Source: Escherichia coli (GTDB lineage: Bacteria > Pseudomonadota > Gammaproteobacteria > Enterobacterales > Enterobacteriaceae). Taken from it: a DNA stretch of 23,984 nucleotides. Positions 9,662 through 10,860 of this stretch are shown here, piece after piece. The position numbers were made by a program, and so were the translations under genes. A model generated the notes under the pieces. It did no database searches and was not told the origin of the DNA. It saw only the letters and a list, made by a program, of their open reading frames with translations. Each line of letters begins with the position of its first letter. Within the stretch, counting starts at the first letter, position 1. The stretch lies in assembly GCF_003334305.1 (NCBI RefSeq), contig NZ_QOWS01000038.1, one strand, 5' to 3'.

Positions 9662-10180
9662 ATGTCCATCCGTTTTGCCCGCAAAGCCGATTGTGCTGCC
9701 ATTGCGGAAATTTATAACCACGCCGTGTTGTATACGGCGGCTATCTGGAATGACCAAACGGTTGATGCAGATAACCGCATTGCCTGGTTTGAAGCGCGGA
9801 CCATAGCAGGTTATCCGGTGCTGGTGAGTGAAGAAGATGGCGTAGTGACGGGATATGCCTCGTTTGGCGACTGGCGTAGTTTCGATGGTTTTCGCCATAC
9901 CGTGGAACATTCGGTTTATGTCCATCCCGATCATCAGGGCAAAGGTCTGGGGCGTAAATTGTTAAGCCGATTGATTGATGAAGCGCGGGATTGCGGGAAG
10001 CATGTCATGGTCGCCGGGATCGAATCGCAAAATCAGGCCTCGCTGCATCTGCACCAGTCGCTGGGATTTGTCGTCACCGCACAAATGCCGCAGGTGGGCA
10101 CTAAATTTGGGCGCTGGCTGGATCTGACATTTATGCAGTTGCAACTCGACGAACGCACTGAACCGGACGCGATTGGATGA
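9662..10180 (+). CDS. mnaT: GNAT-family N-acyltransferase (L-amino acid N-acyltransferase)
   Basis: Supplied ORF 9428..10180; I place the start at ATG 9662 (MSIRFARKADCAAIAEIYNHAV, 172 aa). Acetyl-CoA binding motif QGKGLGRKLL present. Confidence 0.85.
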   Translation: MSIRFARKADCAAIAEIYNHAVLYTAAIWNDQTVDADNRIAWFEARTIAGYPVLVSEEDGVVTGYASFGDWRSFDGFRHTVEHSVYVHPDHQGKGLGRKLLSRLIDEARDCGKHVMVAGIESQNQASLHLHQSLGFVVTAQMPQVGTKFGRWLDLTFMQLQLDERTEPDAIG

Positions 10181-10626
10181 ATCAGTCGCTCACCCTTGCT
10201 TTTTTGATTGCCGCCGGAATTGGTCTGGTAGTCCAGAACACGCTGATGGTGCGCATCACCCAGACCTCCTCTACCATTCTCATCGCCATGTTGCTGAACT
10301 CACTGGTGGGGATTGTGCTCTTTGTTTCTATTTTATGGTTTAAACAAGGCATGGCGGGGTTTGGCGAACTGGTGTCCAGCGTGCGCTGGTGGACACTTAT
10401 ACCCGGCTTGCTGGGATCGTTTTTTGTCTTCGCCAGTATCAGCGGATATCAGAATGTGGGAGCGGCGACAACTATTGCAGTACTGGTCGCCAGCCAGCTA
10501 ATTGGCGGTCTGATGCTGGATATCTTCCGCAGTCATGGCGTACCACTACGGGCGTTGTTCGGCCCAATTTGTGGCGCAATTTTACTTGTGGTTGGCGCCT
10601 GGTTGGTAGCCAGACGCTCATTTTAA
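10177..10626 (+). CDS. ydcZ: small inner membrane protein of unknown function
   Basis: 149-aa hydrophobic ORF whose ATG overlaps the mnaT stop (ATGA), suggesting translational coupling. Confidence 0.8.
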   Translation: MNQSLTLAFLIAAGIGLVVQNTLMVRITQTSSTILIAMLLNSLVGIVLFVSILWFKQGMAGFGELVSSVRWWTLIPGLLGSFFVFASISGYQNVGAATTIAVLVASQLIGGLMLDIFRSHGVPLRALFGPICGAILLVVGAWLVARRSF

Positions 10627-10860
10627 TCAGAGGATGGTGCCGCCTTTGGTTAACTGTTCGTGGCGCGCTTCCATATCTTCTTTATGCTTGCGACCGTGAT
10701 GGGCGATCGCTGTGCGCAGACGTTGCTGCTGGGTGTAGCGATCTTCCCGACTTAACTCCGCGTCATCGCTCAGGGCGATTAATAATTCGTTCATATGGGC
10801 AATGACGCTCTCTTCAATCGCGGCATCCACGCGCGCGATGACTTCATCCAGATGCGACAT
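10627..10860 (-). CDS. ydcY: small soluble protein of unknown function
   Basis: 77-aa ORF; its stop codon abuts the ydcZ stop with no intergenic gap (convergent). Confidence 0.7.
   Translation of the reverse strand: MSHLDEVIARVDAAIEESVIAHMNELLIALSDDAELSREDRYTQQQRLRTAIAHHGRKHKEDMEARHEQLTKGGTIL

What the first reader, a model, noticed from the sequence alone, without database searches (positions are those of the whole stretch)
10177..10860. Convergent ydcZ and ydcY with no intergenic gap
The ydcZ stop (10624-10626) and the ydcY stop (10627-10629) are directly adjacent on opposite strands, leaving no room for separate terminators. Transcripts must therefore overlap at their 3' ends, which allows mutual antisense interference. 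In addition, ydcZ overlaps the mnaT stop (ATGA).
Basis: seen in the sequence. Interest (0 to 1): 0.2.

Follow-up and report, generated by a model that had tools for sequence, protein, structure and literature searches.

The report
Abutting convergent genes ydcY and ydcZ
Two E. coli genes that face each other end with their stop codons touching, so the signals that finish the ydcY message lie inside the end of the ydcZ gene; this is real but is an ordinary way for bacterial genes to be packed.

Summary
ydcZ (10177-10626, +) and ydcY (10627-10860, -) abut stop-to-stop, and ydcZ overlaps mnaT by ATGA. RefSeq annotates K-12 the same way.

The ydcY mRNA ends at K-12 1517918, which is window 10590. 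That is 37 nt inside ydcZ on the antisense strand, 3 nt past a U-less hairpin (10593-10620). A bicyclomycin-sensitive, Rho-dependent termination region lies further in, at about 10312. This fits the known class of Rho-terminated transcripts whose 3' ends are protected by a stem-loop. Any complete ydcZ mRNA must therefore overlap ydcY mRNA by at least 37 nt.

No ydcZ 3' end has been mapped, and mutual interference is untested. The phenomenon is common: 276 of 370 convergent E. coli operons give overlapping 3' ends, and 75 convergent gene pairs overlap in their coding sequences.

One modest new point comes from about 70 Enterobacteriaceae species. The hairpin inside ydcZ is strong where the junction is tight (-4 to 9 nt). 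It is often decayed where REP-like palindromes fill the gap. This is suggestive only: p = 0.078 after a crude phylogenetic correction. Interest is low.

The parts
9662..10180 (+). mnaT coding sequence (L-amino acid N-acyltransferase), upstream gene of the mnaT-ydcZ pair
   Evidence: ORF and translation; RefSeq annotation
10177..10180 (+). ATGA: the ydcZ start overlaps the mnaT stop (typical translational-coupling junction)
   Evidence: Sequence; a 4-nt overlap in 64 of 69 species and a 1-nt overlap (TGATG) in 5
10177..10626 (+). ydcZ coding sequence (149 aa, DMT-family membrane protein)
   Evidence: full-length tblastn matches in about 70 species
10627..10860 (-). ydcY coding sequence (77 aa, DUF2526)
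   Evidence: shown to be a protein in PMC4344625
10624..10629 (.). Stop-to-stop junction TAA|TCA with zero intergenic bases
   Evidence: the same TGATTA junction occurs in all Escherichia species sampled
10593..10620 (-). Hairpin A in the ydcY mRNA. It is an 8-bp G+C-rich stem that includes one U.G pair, plus 2 outer pairs, with a 7-nt loop and no U tract. It is encoded by ydcZ codons Gly-Ala-Trp-Leu-Val-Ala-Arg-Arg.
   Evidence: MFE -14.3 kcal/mol, z = -3.0. Only 0.8% of synonymous recodings are as stable on this strand, against 25% on the + strand. The stem codons are fixed in tight-junction species.
10590..10590 (-). Mapped 3' end of the ydcY mRNA (K-12 1517918, +), 37 nt past the ydcY stop and 3 nt past hairpin A
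   Evidence: Adams et al. 2021 Term-seq, supplementary file 1, class 'primary ydcY / antisense ydcZ'; coordinate conversion checked
10590..10626 (-). ydcY 3' UTR. This is the minimum stretch that is complementary to any full-length ydcZ mRNA (37 nt).
   Evidence: Follows from the mapped 3' end and the ydcZ stop position
10287..10589 (-). Rho-dependent termination zone for ydcY read-through, antisense to ydcZ. It holds a C-rich, G-poor tract at about 10287-10427. The reported Rho peak is at 10312 (K-12 1518196).
   Evidence: Adams et al. supplementary file 2: Rho score 15.8, significance 2.2e-25, reads upstream/downstream 164/9 untreated and 213/185 with bicyclomycin. C/G ratio up to 2.08.
10623..10653 (+). 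Hairpin B, a candidate 3' hairpin of the ydcZ mRNA. It is specific to the + strand because it relies on G.U pairs. It contains the ydcZ stop and lies in the last codons of ydcY. Its function has not been tested.
   Evidence: -11.6 kcal/mol on the + strand against -1.9 on the - strand. 0.7% of synonymous recodings are as stable. Across species, the same ydcY-terminal segment beats its synonymous recodings (p<0.05) in 42% of tight-junction and 14% of wide-gap species.
10903..10930 (-). Sigma-70-like promoter upstream of ydcY (TTGACG, 16-nt spacer, TATCAT)
   Evidence: Consensus scan, 10 of 12 matches. A sigma-D promoter is predicted for ydcY, and ortT-ydcY is not an operon, according to PMC4344625.

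Best explanation
ydcY and ydcZ form a compact convergent gene boundary with no spacer. The signals that make the RNA 3' ends are therefore embedded in coding sequence.

Transcription of ydcY starts at its own sigma-70 promoter, about 36 nt upstream of the ATG. It passes the ydcY stop and continues on the antisense strand of ydcZ. That RNA is untranslated and becomes C-rich and G-poor, and Rho terminates it diffusely within roughly the next 300 nt. 3'-to-5' exonucleases then trim the tail back to a G+C-rich, U-less hairpin encoded by the last 10 codons of ydcZ. The result is a discrete, stable ydcY mRNA of about 300 nt that ends 37 nt inside ydcZ.

Any ydcZ mRNA that reaches its own stop codon is therefore complementary to the ydcY mRNA over at least 37 nt, and converging polymerases share this track.

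Shown: the abutment, the ydcY 3' end, the Rho dependence and the hairpin.

Inferred: the exonuclease trimming, selection on the hairpin, and the view that interference between the two genes is at most a side effect, not a dedicated regulatory device.
For: - Abutting stops and the ATGA overlap.
- No intrinsic terminator at the junction.
- The Term-seq 3' end is at K-12 1517918, which is window 10590. It is classed as primary for ydcY and antisense to ydcZ. ydcY and ydcZ each occur three times in the three-sheet file; the two rows shown carry this same 3' end.
- A bicyclomycin-dependent read-through region lies at 1518196 (window 10312), with Rho score 15.8 and p = 2e-25.
- Hairpin A folds at -14.3 kcal/mol, ends 3 nt before the mapped end and has no U tract.
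- A C>G tract lies downstream.
- These are exactly the features of Rho-dependent transcript ends described by Dar and Sorek 2018.
- An independent rifampicin time-series data set lists a start event in ydcY and a 'Termination' event 300 nt downstream on the same strand.
- Hairpin A is more stable than 99% of synonymous recodings, and only on the ydcY-mRNA strand.
- Across species, median MFE is -17.7 kcal/mol where the gap is 9 nt or less (n = 43), against -7.5 where the gap holds REP-like palindromes (n = 21).
- Stem codons GGC, GCC and CGC are fixed in 86-93% of tight-junction species, against 44-52% of wide-gap species.
- Overlapping convergent 3' ends are the norm in E. coli.
Against: - No 3' end of the ydcZ strand has been mapped, so overlap of two coexisting RNAs is inferred from one side only.
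- The Rho score is computed over 800-nt windows, so the exact termination positions are not resolved.
- Exonuclease trimming was not tested at this locus. The hairpin could instead pause or terminate polymerase directly.
- There are no compensatory base changes in hairpin A, because its 3' arm is fixed by Gly-Ala-Trp codons.
- The tight-versus-wide association weakens to 6 of 8 sister contrasts, Wilcoxon p = 0.078, after a crude phylogenetic correction.
- There are counter-examples. Klebsiella indica has a wide gap and a strong hairpin. Atlantibacter has a tight junction and a weak hairpin.
Confidence: 0.6

Rival explanations
1. Hairpin A is an 'overlapping bidirectional terminator' of the kind described by Ju et al. 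2019 and Wang et al. 2022. The hairpin pauses polymerases coming from either side, and head-on plus trailing collisions release them. This would give a ydcY end just left of the hairpin and a ydcZ end just right of it, at or next to the ydcZ stop, independently of Rho and of a U tract.
For: The genes are a convergent pair. A hairpin forms on both strands, with median -17.7 and -19.2 kcal/mol in tight-junction species. The ydcY end lies 3 nt past it and has no U tract. On the + strand the hairpin is followed by UCAUUUUAAUCA. The model is described.
Against: That class is defined as not depending on Rho, whereas here read-through rises about 16-fold with bicyclomycin. No ydcZ-strand 3' end was detected. 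Collision-driven termination needs substantial traffic from both sides and is more efficient for highly expressed pairs. In E. coli the hairpin is weaker on the + strand because of a C.A mismatch.
Confidence: 0.12
2. The overlap is a dedicated regulatory device, excludon-like, giving mutual antisense interference. Expression of ydcY would lower mnaT-ydcZ output, and the reverse, through polymerase collision or RNase III cleavage of the 3' duplex.
For: At least 37 nt of guaranteed complementarity, and about 300 nt of ydcY-strand transcription into ydcZ. The tight convergent arrangement is kept in 43 of about 70 species. Strand-specific hairpins sit on both sides.
Against: There are no expression data linking the two genes, and the literature search found none. 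Rho stops most read-through under normal conditions. Many lineages have inserted 26-1349 nt between the genes without losing either gene, which argues against a requirement for overlap. The same kind of overlap occurs at 75% of convergent operons.
Confidence: 0.1
3. Nothing is selected here. The zero gap is a neutral outcome of deletion bias. Hairpin A is an accident of the Gly-Ala-Trp...Ala-Arg-Arg codons inherited from the common ancestor, and the mapped 3' end is simply where decay happens to stall.
For: No compensatory changes in the stem. The phylogenetically corrected association is not significant at 0.05. The rare AGR arginine codon in the stem is kept in both tight and wide groups.
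Against: Stem stability exceeds 99% of synonymous recodings, on the ydcY strand only. 72% of tight-junction species pass the same test, against 14% of wide-gap species. The synonymous third positions of three stem codons are 86-93% fixed across genera whose ydcZ genes are only about 80% identical, while loop codons vary freely.
Confidence: 0.18

Closest known systems
Rho-dependent transcripts with stem-loop-protected 3' ends (Peters et al. 2012 hypothesis; Dar and Sorek 2018, PMC6061677)
   Same: A discrete steady-state 3' end a few nt past a stable stem-loop without a U tract; C-over-G enrichment downstream; read-through on bicyclomycin treatment.
   Different: The protective stem-loop and the rut-like tract lie entirely inside the coding sequence of the convergent neighbour, not in an intergenic 3' UTR. 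Exonuclease dependence was not examined at this locus.
Overlapping 3' ends of convergent operons in E. coli (Conway et al. 2014, PMC4161252; classic dnaQ-rnh and ilvA-ilvY cases cited there)
   Same: Convergent transcription units whose RNAs are complementary at their 3' ends. This was reported for 276 of 370 convergent operons, with a mean overlap of 286 nt.
   Different: Here overlap is obligatory because the spacer is zero, rather than a result of leaky intergenic terminators. Only one of the two 3' ends has been mapped.
Overlapping bidirectional terminators between convergent genes (Ju et al. 2019; Wang et al. 2022 preprint, 10.1101/2022.10.23.513370)
   Same: A convergent pair, a hairpin in the shared region, and a 3' end without a U tract.
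   Different: That class is described as Rho-independent, with ends mapped on both strands. Here Rho dependence is strong and the second end is unmapped.
REP/BIME palindromes as dual 3' UTR elements between convergent genes (bioRxiv 10.64898/2026.03.23.713779)
   Same: In Citrobacter, Kluyvera and related species the ydcY-ydcZ gap is occupied by REP-like palindromes (gap MFE -7 to -85 kcal/mol). These could serve both mRNAs.
   Different: E. coli itself has no REP at this junction. The coding-embedded hairpin appears to do that job for ydcY.
Convergent (tail-to-tail) overlapping or abutting genes in prokaryotes (Huvet and Stumpf 2014, PMC4161906)
   Same: Stop codons touch or overlap. 75 convergent pairs overlap in E. 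coli. In Atlantibacter and one Enterobacter asburiae genome, ydcY and ydcZ overlap by 4 nt (TTAA or CTAA).
   Different: In E. coli the coding sequences abut exactly and share no base.

Membership tests
Rho-dependent, stem-loop-protected mRNA 3' end (Dar and Sorek class) | Discrete steady-state 3' end immediately downstream of an energetically stable stem-loop | tested here: met
   The Term-seq end at window 10590 lies 3 nt past the hairpin at 10593-10620, which folds at -14.3 kcal/mol.
Rho-dependent, stem-loop-protected mRNA 3' end (Dar and Sorek class) | No uridine-rich tract after the stem-loop | tested here: met
   The sequence after the stem is CCAACCACAAGUAAAA. The terminator scan is negative.
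Rho-dependent, stem-loop-protected mRNA 3' end (Dar and Sorek class) | Read-through increases when Rho is inhibited | tested here: met
   Published DirectRNA-seq with and without bicyclomycin: Rho score 15.8, p = 2.2e-25 at K-12 1518196 (+), antisense to ydcZ. This comes from the literature and was not re-measured.
Rho-dependent, stem-loop-protected mRNA 3' end (Dar and Sorek class) | C-over-G enrichment (rut-like) downstream of the stem-loop | tested here: met
   C/G is 1.3-1.4 in the first 100 nt and up to 2.08 at +240 to +340 nt.
Rho-dependent, stem-loop-protected mRNA 3' end (Dar and Sorek class) | Longer tails accumulate in pnp or rnb exonuclease mutants | not testable with these tools
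   This needs RNA-seq of the exonuclease mutants at this locus. The supplementary tables of PMC6061677 are not held.
Intrinsic (Rho-independent) terminator | G+C-rich hairpin directly followed by a U tract on the transcribed strand | tested here: not met
   No site was found at the junction on either strand. The - strand has no U tract. The + strand has UCAUUUUAAUCA, but its stem is interrupted by a C.A mismatch.
Overlapping bidirectional terminator (Ju et al. 2019) | 3' ends of both convergent transcripts mapped on either side of a shared hairpin | tested here: inconclusive
   Only the ydcY end is in the Term-seq tables. No ydcZ-strand end was found in three conditions. The SEnd-seq tables are not held.
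Overlapping bidirectional terminator (Ju et al. 2019) | Termination does not depend on Rho | tested here: not met
   Strong bicyclomycin-dependent read-through on the ydcY strand.
Excludon-like or cis-antisense regulation between overlapping transcription units | Expression of one unit measurably represses the other | not tested
   No such data were found in 29 papers that mention ydcY or ydcZ. This needs promoter-deletion experiments.
Translationally coupled gene pair (ATGA stop/start overlap) | The start codon of the downstream gene overlaps the stop codon of the upstream gene on the same strand | tested here: met
   ATGA at 10177-10180; conserved in 64 of 69 species. Coupling itself was not measured.

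The most novel reading that the evidence does not exclude
The hairpin encoded by the last ten codons of ydcZ is kept by selection on synonymous sites. The selection would serve the 3' end of the neighbouring, oppositely oriented ydcY mRNA, not YdcZ itself. That constraint would relax whenever a REP palindrome or other hairpin is inserted between the genes. If so, one gene's codon choice is shaped by its convergent neighbour's need for a 3'-end stabiliser, and coding-embedded hairpins trade off with REP elements during evolution.
Probability: 0.35. Interest if true: 0.35.

Novelty: new member of a known kind. Interest (0 to 1): 0.15.

Why it matters
The finding matters little on its own. It also places the locus in a well-described class: Rho-terminated, hairpin-protected 3' ends and overlapping convergent transcription.

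The locus is a clean natural example of 3'-end signals written into a neighbour's coding sequence. That matters in practice for genome recoding and for gene deletions. For example, a ydcZ knockout or a synonymous recoding of its last codons would remove the 3' hairpin and Rho-termination zone of ydcY.

If the hairpin-versus-REP trade-off holds up on more genomes, it would be a small but neat case of selection on synonymous sites driven by the adjacent gene.

Tried and rejected
- An Rfam scan of the whole window found no RNA family.
- The consensus terminator scan found nothing at the junction.
- The DNA inverted-repeat search missed hairpin A, because the hairpin relies on a G.U pair.
- The covariation test on hairpin A was uninformative: 87% of cells pair, but there are no compensatory changes, because the 3' arm is fixed by Gly-Ala-Trp codons.
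- I looked for a ydcZ-strand 3' end or other locus-specific data in several places:
  - Dar and Sorek 2018 supplements: not held.
  - Conway 2014 supplements: not held.
  - TERMITe 2025 supplements: no hit.
  - Ju et al. 2019: the paper is not held.
- I considered hairpin A as an intrinsic terminator for ydcZ that would end the mRNA at its own stop codon. I rejected this as the main reading for E. coli because the + strand stem carries a C.A mismatch and no such end has been mapped. It stays open for species with a perfect stem.
- I considered the conserved rare AGA/AGG arginine codon as evidence for the hairpin. I rejected it as specific evidence because the codon is equally kept in wide-gap species.
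- The uncorrected tight-versus-wide statistics (Mann-Whitney p = 2e-5) are not independent samples. I replaced them with sister-clade contrasts (p = 0.078).

Full report
**Observation**

The window is an E. coli chromosomal segment, reverse-complemented relative to K-12 MG1655 around 1.51-1.525 Mb. Reading the sequence and listing ORFs gives these coordinates:
- ydcZ at 10177..10626 on the + strand, with TAA at 10624-10626.
- ydcY at 10627..10860 on the - strand, with its TGA at 10627-10629.
- mnaT at 9662..10180. Its TGA and the ydcZ ATG form ATGA at 10177-10180.

RefSeq annotates K-12 identically: ydcY 1517648..1517881 (+), ydcZ 1517882..1518331 (-), mnaT 1518328..1518846 (-). The locus is in 5416 of 5426 complete E. 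coli genomes. The window is base-for-base identical to K-12 from 10501 to 11208. Both C-termini are genuine, because YdcY (77 aa) and YdcZ (149 aa) align over their full length in about 70 species.

**How unusual is it?**

Not very. E. coli has about 704 convergent gene pairs, and 75 of them overlap in their coding sequences. An exactly abutting pair sits in the lowest tenth or so of the spacing distribution but is not an outlier. The other convergent pairs near this one have 35-112 nt between them.

At the RNA level, Conway et al. found that 276 of 370 convergent operons give complementary 3' ends, overlapping by 286 nt on average. The ATGA overlap is the usual coupling junction. It is kept in 64 of 69 species, and the remaining five have TGATG.

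**What the transcripts do**

The consensus scan finds no intrinsic terminator at the junction. It does find a good sigma-70-like promoter for ydcY: TTGACG, 16-nt spacer, TATCAT, at 10930..10903 on the - strand. Rfam finds nothing in the window.

In the Term-seq tables of Adams et al. 2021 (PMC7815308), a 3' end at K-12 1517918 (+) is classed as the primary end of ydcY and as antisense to ydcZ. ydcY and ydcZ each occur three times in the three-sheet table (LB OD 0.4, LB OD 2.0, M63). The two rows displayed have read counts of 17670 and 1884. I checked their 61-nt context string against the window. The end is at window 10590 on the - strand, 37 nt beyond the last base of the ydcY stop and therefore 37 nt inside ydcZ.

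The same paper's map of Rho-dependent regions lists K-12 1518196 (+), which is window 10312, as antisense to ydcZ. Its Rho score is 15.8 and its significance 2.2e-25. Reads upstream/downstream are 164/9 untreated and 213/185 with bicyclomycin.

An independent rifampicin time-series data set lists a start event in ydcY and a 'Termination' event 300 nt further on the same strand. This matches a ydcY transcript of about 300 nt (its coordinates are in a different numbering, so only the spacing is used).

No 3' end on the ydcZ strand appears in any of the three Term-seq conditions.

**The hairpins**

On the ydcY-mRNA strand, window 10620..10593 folds into an 8-bp G+C-rich stem with one U.G pair, two outer pairs and a 7-nt loop. 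Its MFE is -14.3 kcal/mol, with z = -3.0 against shuffles, and it ends 3 nt before the mapped 3' end. No U tract follows it. On the ydcZ sense strand the U.G pair becomes a C.A mismatch and the structure is unremarkable.

Downstream on the ydcY strand, the RNA is C-rich and G-poor. C/G is 1.3-1.4 at first and reaches 2.08 at +240 to +340 nt, just before the Rho peak.

Four features are present together: a discrete end just past a U-less stem-loop, C over G downstream, and read-through on Rho inhibition. These are the defining features of the Rho-dependent transcript ends described by Dar and Sorek 2018. Those authors showed that diffuse Rho termination further downstream is followed by PNPase and RNase II trimming back to the stem-loop. 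I therefore assign the ydcY 3' end to that class. The trimming step is inferred, not shown, for this locus.

A second hairpin is specific to the + strand (10623-10653: -11.6 kcal/mol on the + strand, -1.9 on the - strand). It contains the ydcZ stop and lies in the last codons of ydcY. It is a candidate 3' hairpin for ydcZ mRNA, but no data bear on it.

**Is the coding-embedded hairpin selected?**

Only 0.8% of recodings were as stable as hairpin A on the ydcY strand, against 25% on the ydcZ strand. For hairpin B the figure was 0.7% on the + strand.

I fetched the locus from 80 species-level genomes and measured the distance between the two stops.
- In 43 species the distance is -4 to 9 nt. It is zero in all Escherichia species sampled, and there is a 4-nt TTAA or CTAA overlap in Atlantibacter and one Enterobacter asburiae genome.
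- In 21 species it is 26-176 nt.
- In 6 species it is above 300 nt, with inserted genes.

Most of the 26-176 nt gaps are strong palindromes. Several carry the REP signature TTATCCGGCCTAC. The Citrobacter amalonaticus gap matches unannotated intergenic sites elsewhere in E. coli chromosomes. E. coli has no such element in the window.

The last 45 nt of ydcZ, folded in the ydcY orientation, have a median MFE of -17.7 kcal/mol in the tight group and -7.5 in the wide group. 72% of tight-group species beat 95% of their synonymous recodings, against 14% of wide-group species. The encoded peptide GAWLVARR is the same in both groups.

The stem codons are far more fixed in the tight group:
- Gly GGC: 39/43 tight, 12/27 wide.
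- Ala GCC: 40/43 tight, 14/27 wide.
- Arg CGC: 37/43 tight, 12/27 wide.
- Loop codons do not differ between the groups.

**Caveats on that point**

- The species are not independent. On an NJ tree of ydcZ, the gap state changes about 8 times. 6 of 8 sister contrasts show the weaker hairpin in the wide-gap clade, with Wilcoxon p = 0.078.
- There are counter-examples. Klebsiella indica has a wide gap and a strong hairpin. Atlantibacter has a tight junction and a weak hairpin.
- The stem shows no compensatory changes, because its 3' arm is fixed by Gly-Ala-Trp codons. Covariation is therefore uninformative.
- The rare AGA/AGG arginine codon in the stem is kept in both groups and so is not specific evidence.

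I regard selection on the hairpin as plausible but unproven.

'No intergenic gap' and 'ATGA overlap' are correct. 'Transcripts must overlap' is supported from the ydcY side. Any ydcZ mRNA that includes its stop codon is complementary to the mature ydcY mRNA over at least 37 nt (10590-10626), and nascent ydcY-strand transcription reaches roughly 300 nt into ydcZ.

'Mutual antisense interference' remains a possibility without evidence. No ydcZ-strand end or expression relationship is documented. Rho curtails the read-through. Many lineages have separated the two genes by 26-1349 nt without losing either.

The alternative that hairpin A is a collision-type overlapping bidirectional terminator fails that class's criterion of Rho independence, and the second mapped end is missing.

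**Verdict**

This is a real, correctly described, but ordinary feature. It is a new, undescribed member of well-known kinds: abutting convergent genes, overlapping convergent transcription, and a Rho-terminated, stem-loop-protected 3' end. The only mildly new element is that the protective hairpin and Rho zone of ydcY lie wholly within ydcZ coding sequence, and that the hairpin seems to decay where REP palindromes occupy the gap.

A practical consequence follows. Deleting or recoding the 3' end of ydcZ would also remove the ydcY 3'-end signals.

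Noticed in passing
window 11147-11164 (+) and 11151 (-): The Adams et al. 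Term-seq tables list an 'orphan' 3' end at K-12 1517357 (+), which is window 11151 on the - strand, 32 nt upstream of the ortT ORF. It lies within the palindrome ACGCGCGCAAATATGCGT, which the scan flags as terminator-like on the + strand. It could be a premature end in the ortT 5' leader, or a bidirectional element that would also stop ydcZ-strand read-through.
   Followed up: no
window 11469 (+): A very abundant 3' end (read count 536300 in one Term-seq sheet) lies at K-12 1517039 (-), in the patD/yncL convergent gap just past a long perfect palindrome (GTACTGTCAGAG...CTCTGACAGTAC). It is presumably the yncL terminator, although the table classes it as 'antisense patD'.
   Followed up: no
ydcZ codon -4, window 10612-10614; loci L002-L081: The fourth-last codon of ydcZ is a rare AGA or AGG arginine codon in 51 of 70 species, whether the junction is tight or wide. 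This is far above normal enterobacterial usage of these codons. It is not explained by the hairpin alone.
   Followed up: partly
L008-L015, L018, L019, L034, L036, L053, L059 (gap between ydcY and ydcZ): In Citrobacter, Kluyvera, Pseudescherichia and relatives the junction has been filled by REP/BIME-like palindromes of different sequence and copy number. There are three tandem units in C. amalonaticus L010. This indicates repeated independent insertions at the same convergent junction.
   Followed up: partly
L051:3235-3563: In 'Enterobacteriaceae bacterium 89' the 329-nt gap contains a hairpin with a T run and then a small ORF beginning ATGTGGATTTTAGTGGTAATG and ending GCAGAGTGA, of roughly 60 codons with a hydrophobic start. 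It is inserted between ydcY and ydcZ.
   Followed up: no
L057, L058, L062, L067, L068: In these species 725-1349 nt, presumably one or more genes, separate ydcY from ydcZ, so the convergent pair is not obligatorily adjacent. In nine further fetched loci (for example Buttiauxella and Cedecea) no ydcZ homologue was found; the 3-kb flank was cut short in a few of these loci.
   Followed up: no
L065: A contig labelled 'Chryseobacterium sp. 18061' carries a typical enterobacterial ydcY-ydcZ locus, with 75% and 84% protein identity to E. coli. The record is probably mislabelled or contaminated.
   Followed up: no
window 9609-11208: All 22 differences from K-12 in this stretch lie at or below 10500, in mnaT and the first two thirds of ydcZ. 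The last third of ydcZ, all of ydcY and ortT are identical to K-12.
   Followed up: no
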